This document shows positions 1 to 22,234 of a DNA stretch of 64,000 nucleotides, piece by piece. Where the stretch lies: contig CP000066.1 of assembly GCA_000002445.1 (NCBI GenBank), forward strand, positions 640,001 to 704,000, given 5' to 3'. The translations under genes and the position numbers were made by a program. Position 1 is the first letter of the stretch, and each line of letters begins with the position of its first letter. The stretch is from Trypanosoma brucei (lineage: Eukaryota). The notes beneath the pieces are model-generated. The model saw nothing but the letters and a program-made list of their open reading frames with translations. It searched no databases and was not told where the DNA came from.

Positions 1-906
1 TGTTGGGAGGCGGTTATACGGAGACAATGTCAACGTGCCAAATTCGAGTACGCAGAGATCCACCACATGCCAAAGGTAAAACTATGCGCCATGCTACAAC
101 AATGCATCGAGCTTCAAAACACTTCTCCACTACAAAAATCTCCCCCCAGTTCTGACGCTATGTTTTATTGAGCACAATTTCGTAGATGAGGGCGAGCCCT
201 GGACGTTTATCGCCCACCATCCCACTACCTTATGTAACGTGACGGACAGCAACCGAACAAAAGGGTCGTATCCTTTCGTTTTCTACACATATCACTTTGA
301 ATCCGAGAAGGAGTTCAACAGATGACAAACATAATGCAGTACGTACTAAAACAAAAAACACTTTTTACTTGAATCCCTATATCAACTCACAATCGACAGC
401 ACATATTCGACATTAACTAACTCCATCATTAAAATACACTCCACTCTAACACAGAAACAACCCAATGTGATGCTTAGTTACCATAACAAAGGAATACGCC
501 TCACGTTTCACAAACATGGGTACGAAGTCATTCCACCCTAGTACACACATTTGGTCACCTCACATTAATAACCTGTTTCTTAAACGCGTAAGGCGTTGTT
601 TAAATTTCACGTTGTCATATAATATAATATTCCATACATAATTCTGCCTGCAGAGTCCACACCATATCGACAGCTGCCTTCATTTTGTTTCAGTGCAAAC
701 GCCTAAACCCCTTCTAAAGGAGTCTGGCGTAGTATAAAGATATACAATGCTACAAATACCAGAGCAGCTAGATTGAAACACAGGTGGTGAGGAACTATCG
801 GCATCTGGGGATGAATGACTTCATTCAAATGGGCATGCACGAATGCAGCACCTTTGAAGGGACAAAAACTCGTTTTAGAAAGAAAACTGACAAATAATTT
901 GTACTC

Positions 907-1563
907 TCAGAGAAATAGGAGCAACACTGGAAAAAAAACCTGGTAGATAGGTGGTTGCAGCGGCTGAGATTTGCTTTTCTGCTGTTCCGGGGGGCGAACA
1001 GAGGAAGTTCCGTTACGTTCGCTGCCAAAAGTGGAGGAGACAGTACCTTTATTTTCGGATTTGAGGTGGCCGTCATCCTTAGAGGGTGAACCATTTTCCT
1101 CCTTTTTAGGGGTCGCAGAAACCGAACTACCATTTCTCACCGGCTCTTCAGAAAGCACAGGGCCGTACTCGGATGATGGAGGTGCCTCACCTTTGTTAGA
1201 GGCCTCGTCGCGACTTGAGTCTCCACCCGCTTCCACAACTGGTGAAGCGACTTCGGGTGTTGAGAGCCCAAGGAACTCACTAACCTTTGCGGTTACACAT
1301 CTGTGCGGTGAAAAGCAGGTCAATCCCCCGCCGCAAACGGTACAGTTCCCCTCTGCAGGTGCGCCCGAAGGAACCCTGTGTGCCAGGGTGCAGTTTTTCT
1401 GTGCATACGTCATGAGACGATTCTCCTCGTTTCTAGTTATACGGCTTTCAATTCCCAATACTTCCGTGCACTTACCCACATATCCAATTCTTCCCTCCCA
1501 TACATTCTCACACATGGCCACACGTTGAACGAAACCGAACAGTATTATTGGTAGGCACAGCAT
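907..1563 (-). CDS. Array copy 1: 218-aa predicted secreted/GPI-anchored surface glycoprotein. Signal peptide MLCLPIILFGFVQRVAMC, Cys-containing N-domain, acidic Ser/Glu/Pro-rich stalk with several N-x-S/T sites, hydrophobic C-terminus ...QVFFPVLLLFL
   Basis: ATG confirmed ('cat' at 1561-1563). Complete ORF on the same strand as every other gene. N-terminal hydrophobic signal and C-terminal hydrophobic tail. N-glycosylation sequons NCT, NGSS, NGSP, NGTS. Confidence 0.6.
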   Translation of the reverse strand: MLCLPIILFGFVQRVAMCENVWEGRIGYVGKCTEVLGIESRITRNEENRLMTYAQKNCTLAHRVPSGAPAEGNCTVCGGGLTCFSPHRCVTAKVSEFLGLSTPEVASPVVEAGGDSSRDEASNKGEAPPSSEYGPVLSEEPVRNGSSVSATPKKEENGSPSKDDGHLKSENKGTVSSTFGSERNGTSSVRPPEQQKSKSQPLQPPIYQVFFPVLLLFL

Positions 1564-2420
1564 TTCAGAATTCTACACTGCCTGAGTTGCTCCAACACCA
1601 GCGCAAAGAAAAATAATAAACACCTCATACATAACATATATCATACAGTTATGTGTGTTTATACTTTGTTTCAAAATATATCGTATTGAATACAAATAGC
1701 AGACACATGACACGAAAAAATCCCATTAAGCGTTAACATGACATAAAATACCCTATTCAGATGCAACCGAACAAAAGGGTCGTATCCTTTCATTTTCTAC
1801 GCATATCACTTTTGATCCAAGATACGGTTAAACAGGTGACAAACATAATGCAGTACGTACTAAAACAAAAAACACTTTTTACTTGAATCCCTATATCAAC
1901 TCACAATCGACAACACATATTCGACATTAACTAACTCCATCATTAAAATACACTCCACTCTAACACAGAAACAACCCAATGTGATGCTTAGTTACCATAA
2001 CAAAGGAATACGCCTCACGTTTCACAAACATGGGTACGAAGTCATTCCACCCTAGTACACACATTTGGTCACCTCACATTAATAACCTGTTTCTTAAACG
2101 CGTAAGGCGTTGTTTAAATTTCACGTTGTCATATAATATAATATTCCATACATAATTCTGCCTGCAGAGTCCACACCATATCGACAGCTGCCTTCATCTT
2201 ACTTCCAAACAAACGCCTAAAACTCTTCTAAAGGAGTCTGGCGTAGCATAAAGATATACAATGACGCAAACACCAAAGAAGCTAGATTGAAACACAGGTG
2301 GGGAGGAACTATCGGCATCTGGGGATGAATGACTTCATTCAAATGGGCATGCACGAATGCAGCACCTTTGAAGGGACAAAAACTCGTTTTAGAAAGAAAA
2401 CTGACAAATAATTTGTACTC

Positions 2421-3077
2421 TCAGAGAAATAGGAGCAACACTGAGGAAAACACCTGGTAGATAGGTGGTTGCAGCGGCTGAGATTTGCTTGTCTGCTGTT
2501 CCGGGGGGCGAACAGAGGAAGTTCCGTTACGTTCGCTGCCAAAAGTGGAGGAGACAGTACCTTTATTTTCGGATTTGAGGTGGCCGTCATCCTTAGAGGG
2601 TGAACCATTTTCCTCCTTTTTAGGGGTCGCAGAAACCGAACTACCATTTCTCACCGGCTCTTCAGAAAGCACAGGGCCGTACTCGGATGATGGAGGTGCC
2701 TCACCTTTGTTAGAGGCATCGTCGCGACTTGAGTCTCCACCCGCTTCCACAACTGGTGAAGCGACTTCGGGTGTTGAGAGCCCAAGGAACTCACTAACCT
2801 TTGCGGTTACACATCTGTGCGGTGAAAAGCAGGTCAATCCCCCGCCGCAAACGGTACAGTTCCCCTCTGCAGGTGCGCCCGAAGGAACCCTGTGTGCCAG
2901 GGTGCAGTTTTTCTGTGCATACGTCATGAGACGATTCTCCTCGTTTCTAGTTATACGGCTTTCAATTCCCAATACTTCCGTGCACTTACCCACATATCCA
3001 ATTCTTCCCTCCCATACATTCTCACACATGGCCACACGTTGAACGAAACCGAACAGTATTATTGGTAGGCACAGCAT
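2421..3077 (-). CDS. Array copy 2: 218-aa surface-like protein. Differs from copy 1 at a few residues (DDASNKG, EQQTSKSQ, ...QVFSSVLLLFL)
   Basis: ATG at 3075-3077. Same architecture as copy 1. Identical in protein to copy 3. Confidence 0.6.
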   Translation of the reverse strand: MLCLPIILFGFVQRVAMCENVWEGRIGYVGKCTEVLGIESRITRNEENRLMTYAQKNCTLAHRVPSGAPAEGNCTVCGGGLTCFSPHRCVTAKVSEFLGLSTPEVASPVVEAGGDSSRDDASNKGEAPPSSEYGPVLSEEPVRNGSSVSATPKKEENGSPSKDDGHLKSENKGTVSSTFGSERNGTSSVRPPEQQTSKSQPLQPPIYQVFSSVLLLFL

Positions 3078-3934
3078 TTCAGAATTCTACACTGCCTGAG
3101 TTGCTCCAACACCAGCGCAAAGAAAAATAATAAACACCTCATACATAACATATATCATACAGTTATGTGTGTTTATACTTTGTTTCAAAATATATCGTAT
3201 TGAATACAAATAGCAGACACATGACACGAAAAAATCCCATTAAGCGTTAACATGACATAAAATACCCTATTCAGATGCAACCGAACAAAAGGGTCGTATC
3301 CTTTCATTTTCTACGCATATCACTTTTGATCCAAGATACGGTTAAACAGGTGACAAACATAATGCAGTACGTACTAAAACAAAAAACACTTTTTACTTGA
3401 ATCCCTATATCAACTCACAATCGACAACACATATTCGACATTAACTAACTCCATCATTAAAATACACTCCACTCTAACACAGAAACAACCCAATGTGATG
3501 CTTAGTTACCATAACAAAGGAATACGCCTCACGTTTCACAAACATGGGTACGAAGTCATTCCACCCTAGTACACACATTTGGTCACCTCACATTAATAAC
3601 CTGTTTCTTAAACGCGTAAGGCGTTGTTTAAATTTCACGTTGTCATATAATATAATATTCCATACATAATTCTGCCTGCAGAGTCCACACCATATCGACA
3701 GCTGCCTTCATCTTACTTCCAAACAAACGCCTAAAACTCTTCTAAAGGAGTCTGGCGTAGCATAAAGATATACAATGACGCAAACACCAAAGAAGCTAGA
3801 TTGAAACACAGGTGGGGAGGAACTATCGGCATCTGGGGATGAATGACTTCATTCAAATGGGCATGCACGAATGCAGCACCTTTGAAGGGACAAAAACTCG
3901 TTTTAGAAAGAAAACTGACAAATAATTTGTACTC

Positions 3935-4591
3935 TCAGAGAAATAGGAGCAACACTGAGGAAAACACCTGGTAGATAGGTGGTTGCAGCGGCTGAGATTT
4001 GCTTGTCTGCTGTTCCGGGGGGCGAACAGAGGAAGTTCCGTTACGTTCGCTGCCAAAAGTGGAGGAGACAGTACCTTTATTTTCGGATTTGAGGTGGCCG
4101 TCATCCTTAGAGGGTGAACCATTTTCCTCCTTTTTAGGGGTCGCAGAAACCGAACTACCATTTCTCACCGGCTCTTCAGAAAGCACAGGGCCGTACTCGG
4201 ATGATGGAGGTGCCTCACCTTTGTTAGAGGCATCGTCGCGACTTGAGTCTCCACCCGCTTCCACAACTGGTGAAGCGACTTCGGGTGTTGAGAGCCCAAG
4301 GAACTCACTAACCTTTGCGGTTACACATCTGTGCGGTGAAAAGCAGGTCAATCCCCCGCCACAAACGGTACAGTTCCCCTCTGCAGGTGCGCCCGAAGGA
4401 ACCCTGTGTGCCAGGGTGCAGTTTTTCTGTGCATACGTCATGAGACGATTCTCCTCGTTTCTAGTTATACGGCTTTCAATTCCCAATACTTCCGTGCACT
4501 TACCCACATATCCAATTCTTCCCTCCCATACATTCTCACACATGGCCACACGTTGAACGAAACCGAACAGTATTATTGGTAGGCACAGCAT
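3935..4591 (-). CDS. Array copy 3: 218-aa surface-like protein, identical in protein sequence to copy 2
   Basis: ATG at 4589-4591. 1514 nt from copy 2. Confidence 0.6.
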   Translation of the reverse strand: MLCLPIILFGFVQRVAMCENVWEGRIGYVGKCTEVLGIESRITRNEENRLMTYAQKNCTLAHRVPSGAPAEGNCTVCGGGLTCFSPHRCVTAKVSEFLGLSTPEVASPVVEAGGDSSRDDASNKGEAPPSSEYGPVLSEEPVRNGSSVSATPKKEENGSPSKDDGHLKSENKGTVSSTFGSERNGTSSVRPPEQQTSKSQPLQPPIYQVFSSVLLLFL

Positions 4592-5448
4592 TTCAGAATT
4601 CTACACTGCCTGAGTTGCTCCAACACCAGCGCAAAGAAAAATAATAAACACCTCATACATAACATATATCATACAGTTATGTGTGTTTATACTTTGTTTC
4701 AAAATATATCGTATTGAATACAAATAGCAGACACATGACACGAAAAAATCCCATTAAGCGTTAACATGACATAAAATACCCTATTCAGATGCAACCGAAC
4801 AAAAGGGTCGTATCCTTTCGTTTTCTACACATATCACTTTTGATCCAAGATACGGTTAAACAGGTGACAAACATAATGCAGTACGTACTAAAACAAAAAA
4901 CACTTTTTACTTGAATCCCTATATCAACTCACAATCGACAACACATATTCGACATTAACTAACTCCATCATTAAAATACACTCCACTCTAACACAGCAAC
5001 AACCCAATGTGATGCTTAGTTACCATAACAAAGGAATACGCCTCACGTTTCACAAACATGGGTACGAAGTCATTCCACCCTAGTACACACATTTGGTCAC
5101 CTCACATTAATAACCTGTTTCTTAAACGCGTAAGGCGTTGTTTAAATTTCACGTTGTCATATAATATAATATTCCATACATAATTCTGCCTGCAGAGTCC
5201 ACACCATATCGACAGCTGCCTTCATCTTACTTCCAAACAAACGCCTAAAACTCTTCTAAAGGAGTCTGGCGTAGCATAAAGATATACAATGACGCAAACA
5301 CCAAAGAAGCTAGATTGAAACACAGGTGGGGAGGAACTATCGGCATCTGGGGATGAATGACTTCATTCAAATGGGCATGCACGAATGCAGCACCTTTGAA
5401 GGGACAAAAACTCGTTTTAGAAAGAAAACTGACAAATAATTTGTACTC

Positions 5449-6123
5449 TCAGAGAAATAGGAGCAACACTGGAAAAAAAACCTGGTAGATAGGTGGTTGC
5501 AGCGGCTGAGATTTGCTTTTCTGCTGTTCCGGGGGGCGAACAGAGGAAGTTCCGTTACGTTCGCTGCCAAAAGTGGAGGAGACAGTACCTTTATTTTCGG
5601 ATTTGAGGTGGCCGTCATCCTTAGAGGGTGAACCATTTTCCTCCTTTTTAGGGGTCGCAGAAACCGAACTACCATTTCTCACCGGCTCTTCAGAAAGCAC
5701 AGGGCCGTACTCGGATGATGGAGGTGCCTCACCTTTGTTAGAGGCCTCGTCGCGACTTGAGTCTCCACCCGCTTCCACAACTGGTGAAGCGACTGCGGGT
5801 GTTGGGAGCCCAAGGAACTCACTAACCTTTGCAGTGACACATCTATAATTGAAAGGACAACGCAAGGTTCCCCCGCCACAAACGGTACAGTTCCCGTCAG
5901 TGGTTGCGCCAGATGGTACGCTTCGGATGGGAGTGCAGTTCGCTTCCGCATACTTCACGAGACGATTCTCTTCTGCTACGCCCGCTGGAGCCTTAATTTT
6001 CAGCAAATCCGTACACATATCCACAACTCCAACTCGCGTTCCCCATCCCTTCCCATAAGTAGCAACAATTTGAACCAATCCCGCGAACAGGGTTAATACA
6101 CAGACACACACAGGTCTCGTCAT
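5449..6123 (-). CDS. Array copy 4 (mosaic): 224 aa from the first plausible ATG. Signal peptide MTRPVCVCVLTLFAGLVQIVATYG. The N-terminal Cys domain is divergent (about 50% identity). The C-terminal stalk and tail match copy 1
   Basis: The ORF-track start at 6210 is a TTG. In-frame ATGs lie at 6204 and 6123, and the 6123 one precedes a proper signal peptide. The conserved core CTVCGGG...RCVTAKVSEFLGL is retained. Confidence 0.5.
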   Translation of the reverse strand: MTRPVCVCVLTLFAGLVQIVATYGKGWGTRVGVVDMCTDLLKIKAPAGVAEENRLVKYAEANCTPIRSVPSGATTDGNCTVCGGGTLRCPFNYRCVTAKVSEFLGLPTPAVASPVVEAGGDSSRDEASNKGEAPPSSEYGPVLSEEPVRNGSSVSATPKKEENGSPSKDDGHLKSENKGTVSSTFGSERNGTSSVRPPEQQKSKSQPLQPPIYQVFFPVLLLFL

Positions 6124-7031
6124 TAATCTTTTACTAACATAACAATAAAAGCAAAAAAACTTCTTTGCAGAGCAATTAACTCGCTTTCTCTCATGTTTAA
6201 ACATTGTCAAGTTACCTTTTGTTTAATATACAGAGCCAGTTAACCACTCAGAAAACAACCAGTGAGTATAATCAGCGTCCACAATACTTATCCGTATGGG
6301 AAGAAATGAAATATGAAGTTACGTCTTTTAAAATCTTTATCAAAAGCAGCAGCCAAGCGACCGGAGACTCACATTTATCAAGTGCGAGTAGGGGGCATCT
6401 GTGGTTCAATAACATAAAAACACATGCAGTAACAAGTTTTCGCAGATAAATATTATGGAGTACCACCTATATAAGTCCAAGTCCACACAAAAAAAACCCA
6501 AGCAAAAGCAAATACACAGTAAAGAAATAATTACAAACACATTTGATAGCACCGTCTGTTGATAGCAAATACTTAAACAGCGAAGAAGAAAGACGTTCAA
6601 AGCATTACAAAACACATCGTGGAGCAGTTCTGTAGAAACGATTACAAATGGGAAATAACCAACTCCCACGAAACAGTACATCACTGTAGCCAGTCCATCA
6701 AGAAAAATTGGCAGCGTCTCGGCGCGTGATTCAACTCTTTTCGAACGCTAGACAGCATCCACAACACTAAGCAGTTAGGTACAAATATAGATCACTACAT
6801 AGCAAAAGCAAAATGCGGTAAGTACCGCAAAGGGGTCCCCCATCCTTACGCTGTTCTATTATTTATTTCGCTTCTTCCACTTTATTGCAGTCTACAATTA
6901 TAGGCGCTTTCTCCCATCATATATTAAAGCATAATAGCGCGAGAAAGAACAAAAGGTCATAGATTAACGTATCGAGCTAGTGTGAGGGGTGATGCTCTGA
7001 GGCAGTATTTGTATCTAGTTTAGTGACGGAT

Positions 7032-7949
7032 TTATCCGGTGATAAAGCATACAATTGCGACAAGGAGGTTCTGTATCGCTCCATATCTCACGTTGTTTCC
7101 TTTTTTGTTTTCTGGTTTGCGGTCGATTCTTCCTGTGTTTGATACAATTCCTGCACCTGCTGCAACTGTATCATCCCGTCCGCGCACTGGTTCCTCCCTT
7201 CCTGGGTCTGCATCCTGTTTCCCATTGGTCGTCGTGCCATCTTCTGCAGCATCGCGCTGGTGATCATTCACTGTACCTTTTTCTGGTGAAGATTCCCCTC
7301 GAGGGTGAGTATGCTTCCCTCCCTGAGTTGCTCCTCCCTTTTCTGGTTCCTTTCGGGTCAAGCCCTCACCTCCAGCTCCGTCCTTTTTCCCCGAAGCTCC
7401 CCGCTTCTCCCCAGCAGTTCCCCGCTTTTCCCCCGGACTTTGCTGATCTTCCTTTGGAGTTTCCTCACCTTCCCCCGAAGCTTCCTGCTCCTCCCCCTCA
7501 CTTTTGGGAGCACTGCTCGCTGTCTCTTCGTCGTCCGAACCGCTACCCTTAGTTGTGTCTGAGGGTCCCTGTTCAGACGCGGCAGACTGCTCTACCGTCT
7601 CTTCTGTAGGGACCTGTTGTGTTATACTCCGCCAGTCGGAGTCGGAGCATGTTGTGGCATTGAGTGAATCCTCGCTTGAGTCCTCGTCCGTGCAATTAAG
7701 GGTGTGCAGCCGGTGGCCGTTTCCATGAAAAATGGCGTACACTTTGAGCTTCAGCTTGAAATATCCCTGTGGTTGTCCCTTTCCGATCAGAAGCACAGGA
7801 GTGTTTGTGCAGTTGGCAGGGTGCCACTTGCCCTTCCATCTGCACAGCGCCCCTTCCGCTTCATTATGCAGACAGTCACACCTGAAAGTCACTGCTGAAG
7901 ATCCCAAAACTACACAACTTGCTAGAAACAACGCTGTAAATGTCAACAT
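7032..7949 (-). CDS. 305-aa predicted secreted/membrane protein. Signal peptide, Cys motif (FRCDCLHNEAEGALCRWKGKWHPANCTNT), long acidic Gly/Glu/Lys-rich low-complexity region, C-terminal hydrophobic segment LLVAIVCFITG
   Basis: ATG confirmed at 7947-7949. Compositional architecture resembles a surface protein. No recognisable enzymatic motifs. Confidence 0.45.
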   Translation of the reverse strand: MLTFTALFLASCVVLGSSAVTFRCDCLHNEAEGALCRWKGKWHPANCTNTPVLLIGKGQPQGYFKLKLKVYAIFHGNGHRLHTLNCTDEDSSEDSLNATTCSDSDWRSITQQVPTEETVEQSAASEQGPSDTTKGSGSDDEETASSAPKSEGEEQEASGEGEETPKEDQQSPGEKRGTAGEKRGASGKKDGAGGEGLTRKEPEKGGATQGGKHTHPRGESSPEKGTVNDHQRDAAEDGTTTNGKQDADPGREEPVRGRDDTVAAGAGIVSNTGRIDRKPENKKGNNVRYGAIQNLLVAIVCFITG

Positions 7950-19659: not shown

Positions 19660-19790
19660 CACCAAGCAGCAACAAAAAAAAAGACAGGGAGAGAGGAGGA
19701 AGAAAACGAAAAAAACAAAAAGGAAAGGAAAGGAACACGAGAGCCGTGATTCCAAAAGCAAAGTTAATATACACGCTTTTATTTTCTTAG
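19660..19790 (-). promoter_or_regulatory. Sense-strand polypyrimidine tract (purine-rich on the plus strand) between the PGAP1-like and helicase genes. Candidate trans-splicing/polyadenylation signal
   Basis: Plus strand reads aaaaaaaaagacagggagagaggaggaagaaaacgaaaaaaacaaaaaggaaaggaaagg, which is poly(C/T) on the coding strand. Established kinetoplastid mRNA processing uses such tracts. Confidence 0.4.
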
Positions 19791-22234
19791 TTTGAGGTAC
19801 CAGGAGCTAGAAGGGTGCCACCACTACCACCGGACACGAGCGCCGGACCAAGCAAAAAACATGGAAAGGCGTACAGCAGCACCCAAACAATACGAAAAGA
19901 CGCCACTGGAACACTGATCATCCAAACAAGGGGAATCAGCACAAGGAGAATGCACAAATGCGGTGACAGCCGCTGAATCCATGGGCTGGCCAAAGCCTTG
20001 GCCAAAGAAGACAGTTTGTCCCTATGAAGCTGCTCACAAAACCGTTGCTCATGATATAAAGGCCACATCACGTATGAGAGAATAAGCACGAGTAATAGCA
20101 CCTCCACGGCGCGACTGGTGAAGTCCACTACGGTGGCATCGTCAAACGTGGCTGATCGCAGCGCGTTCCTCCACGCGAAGAAGGGATGAAGGTGAATTAA
20201 GTGCAAAAGGGCGTAGGCCGACACTAACATATACGCCTCCTCCCTTCTGCCGTCACTGCTGTCAAAGGTAGCGGTTTGATATGACGCAGAGAGAGGCAGT
20301 AGAACTATAGTGAGACACAACCACACTAGGGCGCGGTCACATATACGCAGCGGTAACAACACACCACACAGAAAAACAACTACACCAAACACAGTGACCG
20401 GTATTATCCGGTTCCACGGCTCATCGCAATTATCATCGCTACGTGTGGGCGACCTGCGAACCCACCGCGGTAGTCTTAGATAGATGCACGCACGATGAGT
20501 AACCAACCAGAATTTCGTCCATCCAAACTTACTTCCCCTCAAAAGCAGCTGAAGCAAGCGATAAGCAATAATACCCATCCATATGCCTTTCAACGCGGGG
20601 CCGGAAGCGGCAAAAGCACACCAAACCAACATGAGAGGATCAAATGTGGGTTTGCACACAAGCGTGTCAGCGATCCAGGGCGACTTACATCCTTCCATTG
20701 CTGGTAGCAGACAACATGGTATCTGCACGAGTAACAAGTGGCCCACAATTCCCATTATCGGGGTAACCATAACAACAGCCGTGTGCGATGACGTGAACAA
20801 TGATTTCCATGACCAATCTGCGCAGCAATGGGACAGCACACGGAGGTTCAGCAGCAGCCGCAGCAGCAGCGGGTGGATCGCGGAGAGGACGAAAGAACCG
20901 TATGAAAACGCCACCAACACGGTAAGGCCGACATGAGTGTAACTCGCCTCCGCCCACCACGAAAAGGCATCTGAAAAGGAGTGCGGCGGAGGTGCTGGAT
21001 CATTGATGCCCTCTGGTAAAGACCAGTTCCGCAACTTAAGGTTCCTTGACTCGGGTGAAATACCATCCCCCCTGACCAGAGAATTTCTAATAACGGCAGA
21101 GGTCCAGAATTCAACAACACAGTAGTCCCTCATTATATCGTCATGAGAAAACGTCTTTCCACACACTTTTGGGTGCTCTGTGGTGACATCAATACACGAC
21201 CCATTGTTGCACCCAATGCTGTCACTGAGGCGCGTGTGTTTAGACTGCACCATCAAGTCTAACGGCCCCGACGTAAGTGAAAGAATGCGGGGATTGCGAT
21301 AGCCGTTGCGGTCATTAGCCAACACATTTTTCTGAACAGGATCCCAAAGTGTTTTGTACAACCTCCACATGGGCAGGTCAAGAAAAACAGGCATCTGACG
21401 GTTTGGACTGTTCAGTGTAATAACTCCGGCAATCAACGGGAAAACCTGTGAGTCTGATAGAGTCGACAGCGCCATTCGTACCACAACGCCACCCATGGAG
21501 TGACCAATGAGCCATATGAAGGGAGGGTTATGCGTCTCGTTTTTTCGGTCTTCATACAAAGTTATTATTGTATCCGCTACAAAATCTGCCTGATGATGCA
21601 GAAGAGCACCGCGATGGGCATTTGCCTGCTCGGAGAAATCAAAGGTGTACAACCTTCCCTTGATTTTTTGCTCCTGCAAAAAAAGAATGCCAAGCCGGTG
21701 GGCCTGCATGTAAGAGCCTGCGTTTCCATGAGCAAAGAATATAATTACCTCCGGCGGCTTTTCCTGCGTCGGTGCGTATGTGCTGTAACAATCAGGACAA
21801 CTGACTTCAAAAAAGGAGTACGGCGGGCTGCTTCCCCTGTTACTCCTCTCGTCACCCCACTTCGGATTCTGCAAGAACAATCTTCGATAACTCAGTGGGT
21901 GCCACGCAACCGAGTCCGGAAACACACGAAATCGGTTGTTGTTGGCGTAGTCCCTGATCTGTAACCCAAGTCGCACGACCGAAAGTGCGTAGAGCAGTGC
22001 AGCAGCCAAAGAAAACAGTGTAAATAGCACAACGAGATTTTTCTTCCTTTGCGGAAGGGATGTCGCAGCCGGATTGACACCTGACGAGGGGGCACCAATT
22101 CCACTTAACTCTTCATCTTCTTGGCTAGGCATATGTTCGTCGCACAAACCTTTGTCGAAGCAGTACCCACTGACAGGTCCGTCCCCTGTATATGCACTGC
22201 AATCATCCTCCCTTTCATCACCACAAAGGCGCAT
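19787..22234 (-). CDS. 815-aa PGAP1/Bst1-like GPI inositol deacylase: alpha/beta-hydrolase lipase domain followed by a multi-pass hydrophobic C-terminal half
   Basis: ATG confirmed. Motifs IIFFAHGNAGSY and the nucleophile elbow GHSMGG. Several predicted TM segments in the C-terminal half. All typical of PGAP1. Confidence 0.7.
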   Translation of the reverse strand: MRLCGDEREDDCSAYTGDGPVSGYCFDKGLCDEHMPSQEDEELSGIGAPSSGVNPAATSLPQRKKNLVVLFTLFSLAAALLYALSVVRLGLQIRDYANNNRFRVFPDSVAWHPLSYRRLFLQNPKWGDERSNRGSSPPYSFFEVSCPDCYSTYAPTQEKPPEVIIFFAHGNAGSYMQAHRLGILFLQEQKIKGRLYTFDFSEQANAHRGALLHHQADFVADTIITLYEDRKNETHNPPFIWLIGHSMGGVVVRMALSTLSDSQVFPLIAGVITLNSPNRQMPVFLDLPMWRLYKTLWDPVQKNVLANDRNGYRNPRILSLTSGPLDLMVQSKHTRLSDSIGCNNGSCIDVTTEHPKVCGKTFSHDDIMRDYCVVEFWTSAVIRNSLVRGDGISPESRNLKLRNWSLPEGINDPAPPPHSFSDAFSWWAEASYTHVGLTVLVAFSYGSFVLSAIHPLLLRLLLNLRVLSHCCADWSWKSLFTSSHTAVVMVTPIMGIVGHLLLVQIPCCLLPAMEGCKSPWIADTLVCKPTFDPLMLVWCAFAASGPALKGIWMGIIAYRLLQLLLRGSKFGWTKFWLVTHRACIYLRLPRWVRRSPTRSDDNCDEPWNRIIPVTVFGVVVFLCGVLLPLRICDRALVWLCLTIVLLPLSASYQTATFDSSDGRREEAYMLVSAYALLHLIHLHPFFAWRNALRSATFDDATVVDFTSRAVEVLLLVLILSYVMWPLYHEQRFCEQLHRDKLSSLAKALASPWIQRLSPHLCILLVLIPLVWMISVPVASFRIVWVLLYAFPCFLLGPALVSGGSGGTLLAPGTSN

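What the first reader, a model, noticed from the sequence alone, without database searches (positions are those of the whole stretch)
250..6210. Tandem 1514-bp gene array: four copies of a small GPI-anchor-like surface glycoprotein at the downstream end of the transcription unit
The unit repeats with an exact 1514-nt period at 250, 1764, 3278 and 4792. Each unit holds a 657-bp ORF and about 857 bp of spacer. The protein has a signal peptide, a Cys-containing N-domain, an acidic Ser/Glu/Pro-rich stalk with several N-glycosylation sequons, and a hydrophobic C-terminal tail. That is the layout of trypanosomatid stage-specific surface coat proteins, which are typically amplified as tandem arrays so that polycistronic transcription yields more mRNA. 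I could not assign the protein to a named surface family from memory. It may be an under-described lineage-specific surface antigen family.
Basis: partly seen in the sequence, partly recalled or inferred. Interest (0 to 1): 0.75.

Follow-up and report, generated by a model that had tools for sequence, protein, structure and literature searches.

The report
Known T. brucei Family 5 surface-gene array
This is a real four-gene tandem array on Trypanosoma brucei chromosome 3 (Tb927.3.2550-2580) that encodes small predicted secreted or surface glycoproteins of the already catalogued, T. brucei-only "Family 5", whose mRNAs rise in the tsetse-transmissible stumpy stage; the proteins have never been detected and their function is unknown.

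Summary
The repeat is real. Its period is 1514 nt, from 249 to about 6123, and all its genes lie on the minus strand. The window is T. brucei TREU927 chr3:640,001-704,000. The genes are Tb927.3.2550, .2560, .2570 and .2580.

Three copies are 98-100% identical (218 aa, N-domain type A). The fourth carries a diverged N-domain (type B) but an identical stalk, tail and 3' flank.

The array is already published. It is tandem array 13 of Jackson 2007/2010. [quoted passage not shown] Rico et al. 2017 showed that Family 5 mRNAs are stumpy-enriched and de-repressed about 3-fold by REG9.1 RNAi.

Homologues exist only in T. brucei-group (Trypanozoon) genomes, namely orthologues plus the paralogues Tb927.3.600 and Tb927.3.5670. 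There is no Pfam match, no PDB sequence match and no fold match.

The signal peptide, five sequons, disordered acidic stalk and C-terminal GPI-like signal are confirmed as sequence features. Anchoring and surface display remain predictions, and the proteins are absent from published proteomes.

- The fourth copy is not a 657-bp ORF.
- At least five more genes (VR8, an ESAG pseudogene, ESAG1, ESAG2 and a hypothetical) lie downstream on the same strand, so the array does not end the transcription unit.

Verdict: the reading is correct, and the feature is already known.

The parts
249..906 (-). 658-nt conserved 3' segment (presumed 3'UTR) after the last gene of the array, Tb927.3.2550. It marks the left boundary of the repeat.
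   Evidence: 95.6% identical to the segments after copies 2-4. Lag-1514 identity starts to rise at about 249.
907..1563 (-). Tb927.3.2550 CDS, 218 aa, N-domain type A. Its C-terminal variants (K196, F211-P212) are shared with copy 4.
   Evidence: ORF. Exact match to AAZ10289/XP_843848. Coordinates 640907-641563 reverse in Rico 2017 S2.
1564..1762 (-). 199-nt 5' flank of copy 1, holding a polypyrimidine tract (about 1620-1604) and the first AG at 1591-1590, 27 nt before the ATG. Candidate trans-splice acceptor.
   Evidence: Sequence read. This segment is present only upstream of copies 1-3. Splice use is inferred, not shown.
1763..2420 (-). 658-nt 3' segment of copy 2
   Evidence: 100% identical to the copy 3 segment.
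2421..3077 (-). Tb927.3.2560 CDS, 218 aa, type A
   Evidence: Unit 2 differs from unit 3 by 1 nt in 1514.
3078..3276 (-). 199-nt 5' flank of copy 2
3277..3934 (-). 658-nt 3' segment of copy 3
3935..4591 (-). Tb927.3.2570 CDS, 218 aa, type A, protein identical to .2560
4592..4790 (-). 199-nt 5' flank of copy 3
4791..5448 (-). 658-nt 3' segment of copy 4
   Evidence: The 857-nt spacer 4592-5448, which contains this segment, is 99.65% identical to the other spacers.
5449..6204 (-). Tb927.3.2580 CDS as annotated (251 aa). The likely true start is the ATG at 6123-6121 (MTRPV..., 224 aa). N-domain type B; the stalk, tail and 3' flank are identical to copy 1.
   Evidence: Coordinates 645449-646204. 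The extra 27 codons translate a T-rich tract (6159-6136) that is followed by AG at 6135-6134 and 6129-6128. T. equiperdum orthologues are annotated from MTRPV.
7032..7949 (-). Tb927.3.2590, the upstream neighbour. 305 aa with an analogous layout (signal peptide, Cys/N-C-T region, very acidic stalk, hydrophobic end) but not homologous. It is co-regulated with the array.
   Evidence: BLASTP E = 1.1 and hhalign probability 0.4%. Bloodstream-enriched. logFC +1.07 on REG9.1 RNAi. Up at least 2-fold on base J loss.

Best explanation
This is the Tb927.3.2550-2580 tandem array of Trypanosoma brucei chromosome 3, which makes up half of the T. brucei-specific cell-surface-phylome Family 5.

Shown or published:
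- Four head-to-tail genes lie on the minus strand inside a long polycistronic unit.
- Their mRNAs are low in procyclic forms, higher in bloodstream forms and highest in stumpy forms.
- Their mRNAs rise about 3-fold when the repressor REG9.1 is depleted.
- The array evolves by duplication and gene conversion. The last two thirds of the CDS plus a 658-nt 3' segment are homogenised (dS = 0). Two old N-domain types (A x3, B x1; dS about 1, dN/dS about 0.35) are kept.

Inferred:
- Each mRNA is trans-spliced at a polypyrimidine/AG site just upstream of its ATG.
- Each mRNA carries the shared 3' segment as its 3'UTR, and stage control acts through it.
- The roughly 218-aa product enters the ER through an N-terminal signal peptide.
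- It folds a ~70-residue, 6-Cys alpha/beta N-domain carrying two invariant N-C-T sequons, on top of a disordered, acidic, N-glycosylated stalk.
- It is processed at a conserved S-x-S site about 21 residues from the C-terminus for GPI attachment.
- The mature ~180-residue glycoprotein is displayed on, or shed from, the stumpy (transmission) form.

Its molecular function is unknown. The working hypothesis, from Rico 2017, is a role in T. brucei-specific transmission biology.
For: Identity:
- Exact protein matches to TREU927 entries.
- Window coordinates plus 640,000 equal the published gene coordinates.

Family:
- Listed as Family 5.
- HMMER against 1.84 billion representatives finds only orthologues, Tb927.3.600 (E 4e-11, the Family 5 example ID) and Tb927.3.5670 (E 5e-10).
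- A profile search of 5.8 billion proteins finds only T. brucei-group (Trypanozoon) proteins.
- Jackson 2013 Table S1 gives Fam5 as SP yes, GPI yes, Tco 0, Tv 0.

Expression:
- Microarray values for the .2570/.2560/.2550 probe are cultured bloodstream 4653, slender 7070, stumpy 9998, log-phase procyclic 2689 and stationary procyclic 642.
- Northern blots show stumpy enrichment, and REG9.1 RNAi gives logFC +1.50 to +1.69 for all four genes.

Coding and constraint:
- dN/dS is 0.35 across the N-domain.
- Six Cys and two N-C-T sequons are invariant across paralogues that are only 21-28% identical to copy 1.

Structure:
- AlphaFold2 gives pLDDT 78-91 for residues 30-100 and below 40 for residues 110-200.

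Tail:
- The motif P-x-[ED]-Q-Q-x-S-x-S followed by a hydrophobic end is conserved while the stalk is not.
- The 13-residue hydrophobic end has no cytoplasmic residues.

Array dynamics:
-.
- PHI test p<0.001 and 4 GARD breakpoints in Jackson 2010.
- Copy number is 4, 4 and 3 in three assemblies.
Against: - There is no protein-level evidence. Family 5 was not detected in stumpy or differentiation proteomes (Rico 2017 discussion), and the four IDs are absent from the held supplements of the Gadelha 2015 surface proteome.
- GPI anchoring is not robustly predicted. Savage 2012's stringent list (BigPI + FragAnchor + signal peptide + no TM) contains Tb927.10.5700/5710 but not these genes.
- With omega = S197, the omega+3 to omega+8 spacer is Pro-rich, and the hydrophobic end contains Q and P.
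- I could not run SignalP or a GPI predictor. My checks are heuristic only.
- A 3'UTR role in REG9.1 control was shown for ESAG9, not for this array.
Confidence: 0.85

Rival explanations
1. The products are released soluble glycoproteins rather than stably anchored surface proteins. The C-terminal signal is either not used, or the anchor is cleaved and the protein shed, as reported for the co-regulated ESAG9 family.
For: Family 5 is absent from cell-associated stumpy proteomes, and the authors themselves suggest release by analogy with ESAG9. The genes are missing from the stringent GPI list. They are co-regulated with ESAG9 under REG9.1.
Against: The S-x-S motif and hydrophobic tail are conserved across paralogues whose stalks have diverged completely. 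That argues the tail is functional. Jackson 2013 scores the family as GPI-positive.
Confidence: 0.35
2. The genes are transcribed but make little or no protein. On this view they are decaying or evolutionarily young ORFs in a T. brucei-specific gene cluster, so the 'surface protein' layout has no functional consequence.
For: No peptide evidence has been found. The genes sit among an ESAG pseudogene, VR and ESAG-like genes near the distal part of the unit. The neighbouring gene is subject to base-J-dependent attenuation.
Against: All copies keep intact ORFs in three subspecies assemblies. The N-domain has dN/dS 0.35 at dS about 1. Cys residues and sequons are invariant across paralogues that are only 21-28% identical to copy 1. 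AlphaFold2 predicts a confident fold for the N-domain. mRNA regulation is strong and specific.
Confidence: 0.1
3. The C-terminal hydrophobic stretch is a transmembrane anchor, making this a type I membrane protein. Rico 2017 and the TMH column of Jackson 2013 describe it loosely in this way.
For: Jackson 2013 Table S1 lists TMH = 1 for Fam5. Rico 2017 mentions 'a transmembrane helix'.
Against: The stretch is only 13 residues (IYQVFFPVLLLFL), contains Q and P, ends the protein with no cytoplasmic residue and has no flanking basic stop-transfer residues. Jensen 2009's table lists 0 TM for the .2570 probe.
Confidence: 0.05
4. The array is an assembly artefact of a single-copy gene.
For: None found. 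Units 2 and 3 differ by only 1 nt, which in general makes collapse or expansion errors possible.
Against: Units 1, 2/3 and 4 are distinguishable by 35 and more than 230 differences. T. b. gambiense DAL972 has 1 B + 3 A' copies and T. b. equiperdum GCA_003543875.1 has 1 B + 2 A' copies at the syntenic site, with a 1519-nt period. Jackson 2010 annotated 4 copies in both subspecies.
Confidence: 0.02

Closest known systems
Cell-surface phylome Family 5 (Jackson et al. 2013; Rico et al. 2017): Tb927.3.600, Tb927.3.5670, Tb927.10.5700/5710 plus this array
   Same: It is this family. The four genes are listed as members. They share with Tb927.3.600 and Tb927.3.5670 the signal peptide, the 6-Cys/2x N-C-T N-domain, a non-conserved acidic stalk and the QQxSxS-plus-hydrophobic tail.
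   Different: Within the family, the array genes are the only tandemly amplified ones on chr3 and the most strongly REG9.1-responsive. Tb927.3.600 and 10.5700/5710 barely respond. Tb927.10.5700/5710 were not retrieved by my profile searches, so their relationship is weaker than that of 3.600 and 3.5670.
ESAG9 (cell-surface phylome Family 2)
   Same: T. brucei-specific; carries a signal peptide; stumpy-enriched; repressed by REG9.1. ESAG9 products are released from the cell, which is the proposed fate for Family 5 too.
   Different: No sequence relationship was detected. No ESAG9 protein appears in any search. The size and domain layout differ.
Procyclins (EP/GPEET) and other small GPI-anchored trypanosome coat proteins in tandem arrays
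   Same: Small secretory proteins with an acidic, low-complexity extended region and a C-terminal GPI-type signal. They are stage-regulated through 3'UTRs and tandemly duplicated, with gene conversion (procyclin is array 41i in the same table).
   Different: Procyclins are highly abundant, Pol I-transcribed and built of EP/GPEET repeats with no Cys-rich globular domain (from established knowledge). Family 5 has a folded 6-Cys N-domain and a non-repetitive stalk, lies in a Pol II unit and has never been detected as protein.
Tb927.3.2590 (adjacent T. brucei-specific gene)
   Same: Same strand and same stage profile. Analogous layout: signal peptide, Cys/N-C-T region, acidic stalk and hydrophobic end.
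   Different: Not homologous by BLASTP (E 1.1) or by profile-profile comparison (probability 0.4%).

Membership tests
Cell-surface phylome Family 5 (T. brucei) | Sequence clustering with the family's example gene Tb927.3.600 | tested here: met
   hmmsearch against 1.84 billion representatives gives Tb927.3.600 at E 4.3e-11 and Tb927.3.5670 at E 5.4e-10, both near full length. All four gene IDs are labelled 'Family 5' in Rico 2017 Table S2.
Cell-surface phylome Family 5 (T. brucei) | Restricted to T. brucei; absent from T. congolense and T. vivax | tested here: met
   Only T. b. brucei, T. b. gambiense and T. (b.) equiperdum proteins were found in three searches. Table S1 gives Tco 0 and Tv 0.
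Cell-surface phylome Family 5 (T. brucei) | Predicted N-terminal signal peptide | tested here: met
   A hydrophobic core spans residues 2-12 (Kyte-Doolittle 11-residue mean up to 2.79), followed by a small-residue c-region (A16-M-C18). The signal-peptide flag is 1 in Jensen 2009's table and 'y' in Table S1. SignalP itself was not run here.
Cell-surface phylome Family 5 (T. brucei) | Tandem arrangement next to a strand-switch region; bloodstream-preferential mRNA | tested here: inconclusive
   The tandem arrangement and bloodstream/stumpy preference are met. The strand switch lies outside the window. At least Tb927.3.2500-2540 follow on the same strand. Adjacency rests on the statement in Jackson 2013.
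GPI-anchored trypanosome surface glycoproteins | C-terminal GPI signal: small omega and omega+2 residues, a short polar spacer, a hydrophobic end and no cytoplasmic tail | tested here: inconclusive
   S197-x-S199 is invariant across paralogues. It is followed by a 6-residue spacer and a 13-residue hydrophobic end. Table S1 gives GPI 'y'. However, the genes are absent from the stringent BigPI + FragAnchor list, and no GPI predictor was available here.
GPI-anchored trypanosome surface glycoproteins | Demonstrated GPI anchor and surface localisation of the protein | not testable with these tools
   No protein-level data were found. The proteins are not in the held Gadelha 2015 supplements and were not detected in stumpy proteomes.
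ESAG9 / Family 2 | Sequence homology to ESAG9 proteins | tested here: not met
   No ESAG9 protein appears among the hits of any search. Only the regulation is shared.
VSG / ISG / BARP-type three-helix-bundle surface proteins | Long helical-bundle ectodomain fold or VSG Pfam domains | tested here: not met

The most novel reading that the evidence does not exclude
The Family 5 N-domain is a previously undescribed small disulfide-rich fold. It would be carried by a stumpy-stage glycoprotein that is shed rather than retained, and that acts on the tsetse midgut or the mammalian host as a T. brucei-specific transmission factor. The two old N-domain types (A and B) and the hypervariable loop between C83 and C89 (LTCFSPHRC / TLRCPFNYRC / LRCWGEHRC) would be kept distinct by selection, while gene conversion homogenises the stalk, tail and regulatory 3'UTR.
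Probability: 0.2. Interest if true: 0.6.

Novelty: already known. Interest (0 to 1): 0.3.

Why it matters
T. brucei differs from T. congolense and T. vivax in having a morphologically distinct stumpy transmission stage and a salivary-gland route through the tsetse fly. Family 5, Family 7 and ESAG9 are the three T. brucei-only predicted surface or secreted families that are switched on together in stumpy forms under REG9.1 control. This array supplies most of the regulated Family 5 transcripts.

The proteins have not been localised, detected or deleted. The open question is therefore functional: what do they do, and are they anchored or shed? The existence and nature of the locus are not in question. 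For the genome scan, the value is a clean positive control: a sequence-only reading correctly recognised a lineage-specific surface gene array.

Tried and rejected
1. Structure prediction from close orthologues only gave mean pLDDT 41.9 and was discarded. Adding the paralogues Tb927.3.600 and .5670 rescued the N-domain.
3. Pfam and a PDB sequence profile search found nothing.
4. I tested whether Tb927.3.2590 is a diverged fifth member. It is not.
5. I searched the ribosome-profiling supplements (Vasquez 2014) under both Tb927 and Tb427 IDs and found no entries. Nothing was learnt about translation.
6. Searches of the Gadelha 2015 surface-proteome supplements and the Reynolds 2014 supplements gave no entries for these genes.
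7. Rfam and tRNA scans of the window found nothing.
8. The long antisense ORFs (for example 971-1528 +, 185 aa, repeated in each copy) were considered and dismissed as a by-product of the stalk's codon composition. They have no independent support.
9. TRF missed the array because its longest period is 500 nt.


Full report
OBSERVATION

The repeat is real and far beyond chance. The repeat finder reports four copies starting at 249, 1763, 3277 and 4791 with an exact 1514-nt spacing. A lag-1514 identity scan gives 90-100% per 100 nt from about 301 to about 4300, then background. TRF missed the array only because its longest period is 500 nt.

The ORFs are on the minus strand:
- 907-1563, 218 aa
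- 2421-3077, 218 aa
- 3935-4591, 218 aa
- a longer ORF ending at 5449

Aligning the four units in gene orientation shows how they differ. Units 2 and 3 differ by 1 nt in 1514. Unit 1 differs from units 2 and 3 by 35-36 nt. Unit 4 differs by 234-254 nt, nearly all within the first ~520 nt (5' flank and N-terminal coding region), and includes a 3-nt insertion. Eight sites group unit 1 with unit 4 against units 2 and 3, so the array is a mosaic.

The 857-nt spacer has two parts. A 658-nt segment follows every CDS, including the last one (249-906, 95.6% identical). A 199-nt segment is found only upstream of copies 1-3.

IDENTITY

The window proteins are exact matches to T. brucei brucei TREU927 entries AAZ10289 to AAZ10293, on the 1,653,225-bp chromosome 3 record. 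Published gene coordinates equal window coordinates plus 640,000: Tb927.3.2550 at 640907-641563.2560 at 642421-643077.2570 at 643935-644591.2580 at 645449-646204 and .2590 at 647032-647949, all on the reverse strand. The window is therefore chr3:640,001-704,000.

WHAT IS ALREADY PUBLISHED

- The locus is tandem array 13 ('hypothetical protein Tb927.3.2550', present only in T. b. brucei and T. b. gambiense) in Jackson 2007.
- In the T. b. gambiense genome paper it has 4 annotated copies in each subspecies, PHI test p<0.001 and 4 GARD breakpoints.
- Jackson et al. 2013 defined cell-surface-phylome Fam5: example gene Tb927.3.600, signal peptide yes, GPI yes, TMH 1, 8 T. brucei genes, none in T. 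congolense or T. vivax. They noted that Fam4-7 are tandemly arrayed near strand-switch regions and are bloodstream-preferential.
- Rico et al. 2017 Table S2 lists Family 5 as Tb927.3.2550.2560.2570.2580, Tb927.3.5670, Tb927.10.5700, Tb927.10.5710 and Tb927.3.600. The four array genes show the strongest response to REG9.1 RNAi, at logFC +1.50 to +1.69.
- Northern blots in that paper showed Family 5 mRNAs to be stumpy-enriched, like ESAG9. The authors noted that the proteins were not detected in stumpy or differentiation proteomes and may be released.
- Jensen 2009 microarray values for the probe detecting .2570/.2560/.2550 are cultured bloodstream 4653, slender 7070, stumpy 9998, log-phase procyclic 2689 and stationary procyclic 642. 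Tb927.3.2580 also peaks in stumpy forms.
- I found no later functional study.

INDEPENDENT CHECKS OF THE FAMILY

A word-indexed search of 5.8 billion proteins found only orthologues from T. b. brucei, T. b. gambiense and T. equiperdum. An exhaustive HMMER profile search of 1.84 billion cluster representatives added only two proteins, at E 4.3e-11 and 5.4e-10. These are Tb927.3.600 and Tb927.3.5670. A second profile search that included them again found only T. brucei-group (Trypanozoon) proteins. Pfam and a PDB sequence profile search gave nothing.

PROTEIN ANATOMY

Type A protein features:
- a hydrophobic N-terminus, residues 2-12
- Cys at 3, 18, 32, 58, 74, 77, 83 and 89
- sequons at N57, N73, N144, N157 and N184
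- a stalk (residues 96-190) containing S19, E12, G11, P8 and V8, with net charge -6
- a 13-residue hydrophobic C-terminus, IYQVFFPVLLLFL

Aligning types A and B with Tb927.3.600 and Tb927.3.5670 (28% and 21% identity to copy 1) shows what the family conserves:
- C32, Y53-A54, N57-C58-T59, G72-N73-C74-T75, C77, G80, C83 and C89
- in the otherwise unconserved C-terminal half, P191, Q194-Q195, S197 and S199, just before the hydrophobic end

That gives six mature Cys (three likely disulfides), two invariant N-C-T sequons and a conserved S-x-S about 21 residues from the end. This is the geometry expected of a GPI omega/omega+2 site with a short spacer and hydrophobic tail. That last point is my inference from general GPI-signal rules, since no predictor was available.

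EVOLUTION OF THE ARRAY

I computed Nei-Gojobori estimates between copy 1 (type A) and copy 4 (type B).

| Region | dS | dN | dN/dS |
|---|---|---|---|
| Mature N-domain | 1.02 | 0.36 | 0.35 |
| Stalk plus tail | 0 | 0.007 (2 non-synonymous differences) | not defined |

The N-domain types are therefore old and under purifying selection, which supports real coding. Everything 3' of about residue 96, including the 658-nt 3' segment, is homogenised by gene conversion.

Other assemblies show the same design at the syntenic site between the Tb927.3.2590 orthologue and a VSG_B (VR) gene. T. b. gambiense DAL972 has 1 B + 3 A' copies and T. b. equiperdum GCA_003543875.1 has 1 B + 2 A' copies, with a 1519-nt period. 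The A' N-domain in those genomes carries the type-B loop 'TLRCPFNYRC', a subspecies-specific mosaic of the kind Jackson 2010 described. The array is therefore not an assembly artefact, and its copy number varies between 3 and 4.

CONTEXT, AND A CORRECTION

All large ORFs in the window are on the minus strand, and GC skew is negative throughout. That fits one polycistronic unit. The array is not its last element, however. These genes all lie downstream on the reverse strand:
- Tb927.3.2540 (VSG-related VR8)
- Tb927.3.2530 (ESAG pseudogene, 636520-637371)
- Tb927.3.2520 (ESAG1)
- Tb927.3.2510 (ESAG2)
- Tb927.3.2500

The array thus sits inside a ~17-kb block of T. brucei-specific, bloodstream-preferential surface-type genes in the distal part of the unit. 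Reynolds 2014 found Tb427.03.2590 up at least 2-fold after loss of base J, in a study showing J/H3.V-dependent termination inside units. Whether the array is affected too could not be checked.

PROCESSING SIGNALS (INFERRED)

Upstream of copies 1-3, a T-rich tract (about 1620-1604) is followed by the first AG at 1591-1590, 27 nt before the ATG.

For Tb927.3.2580, the annotated 27-codon N-terminal extension (MFKHERKRVNCSAKKFFCFYCYVSKRL) is largely the translation of a 24-nt T-rich tract (6159-6136). That tract is followed by AG at 6135-6134 and 6129-6128, immediately before the ATG at 6123. Starting there gives a 224-aa protein with a normal N-terminal signal peptide, which is how the T. equiperdum orthologues are annotated. 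The longer ORF is conserved in frame in T. b. gambiense, so the question stays open until spliced-leader mapping is checked.

MECHANISM AND RIVALS

Most likely (0.85 for identity and regulation; roughly even odds between the anchored and shed versions), these are stumpy-enriched, REG9.1-repressed secretory glycoproteins. Each has a folded 6-Cys head on a disordered acidic glycosylated stalk and is processed at a C-terminal GPI-type signal.

- The shed or secreted variant (0.35) is favoured by the absence from proteomes and from the stringent GPI list of Savage 2012, which does contain Tb927.10.5700/5710.
- A true transmembrane anchor is unlikely, because the tail is only 13 residues with no cytoplasmic portion.
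- 'Transcribed but not translated' (0.1) is disfavoured by the selective constraint and the conserved Cys and sequon pattern.
- An assembly artefact is excluded.

COMPARISON, NOVELTY AND SCORE

The locus is a member of a known, named family. Its mRNA regulation is published, and its tandem structure and recombination were analysed in 2007 and 2010. What I add is descriptive:
- the family-wide Cys, N-C-T and QQxSxS signature
- a confident but unmatched AlphaFold2 N-domain
- the sharp conversion boundary at the domain junction
- the two-part spacer anatomy
- the probable start-codon mis-annotation of .2580
- copy-number variation between assemblies

None of this would surprise a specialist. The real open question, what Family 5 proteins do and where they go, needs experiments. 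Novelty: already known. Interest: 0.3.

Noticed in passing
window 7032-7949 (-): Tb927.3.2590 is a 305-aa T. brucei-specific protein with the same kind of layout: signal peptide, Cys region with two N-C-T sequons, a stalk of net charge -13 and a hydrophobic end. It has no detectable homology to Family 5. It is bloodstream-enriched, rises on REG9.1 RNAi (logFC 1.07) and rises at least 2-fold on base J loss in Lister 427.
   Followed up: partly
window 6124-6204 (-): The annotated N-terminal extension of Tb927.3.2580 (251 aa) translates a polypyrimidine tract that is followed by AG dinucleotides just before the ATG at 6123. The true product is probably 224 aa, starting MTRPV. The extension is nevertheless in-frame in T. 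b. gambiense too.
   Followed up: partly
window 971-1528, 2485-3042, 3999-4556 (+): A 185-aa antisense ORF spans almost the whole CDS of each type A copy (111 aa in copy 4). It is most likely a by-product of the stalk's codon composition, because the sense strand has few TTA, CTA or TCA codons. Nothing else supports it.
   Followed up: no
window 1-6000 versus the rest: The array region is more AT-rich (GC 0.43-0.46) than most of the conserved genes upstream (mostly 0.47-0.57). GC skew is negative across all 64 kb, which fits a single minus-strand transcription unit.
   Followed up: no
window 19787-22234 (-): An 815-aa ORF carries a PGAP1-like alpha/beta hydrolase domain (E 4e-24), a GPI inositol-deacylase-type enzyme. 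By position it is probably Tb927.3.2610, though I did not confirm that ID; Jensen 2009's table lists Tb927.3.2610 with 10 TM segments and 2.7-fold higher expression in bloodstream forms. It lies about 13 kb upstream of predicted GPI-anchored genes, which is probably coincidence.
   Followed up: no
L001 6967-10657 and L002 8484-13695: Copy number and period differ between assemblies. T. b. gambiense has 1 B + 3 A' copies and T. b. equiperdum has 1 B + 2 A' copies, both with a 1519-nt period against 1514 in TREU927. The A' N-domain there carries the type-B C83-C89 loop.
   Followed up: partly
window 7428-7477: An imperfect 21-nt x 2.4 tandem repeat (65% matches) lies inside the Tb927.3.2590 stalk. 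It encodes the GEKRGTA/GEKRGAS duplication.
   Followed up: no
chromosome region left of the window (chr3:631,198-640,000): Downstream on the same strand lie VR8, an ESAG pseudogene, ESAG1, ESAG2 and a hypothetical gene. Together with the array these form a chromosome-internal block of expression-site-type and T. brucei-specific surface genes. An internal base J/H3.V termination site may lie upstream of this block.
   Followed up: partly
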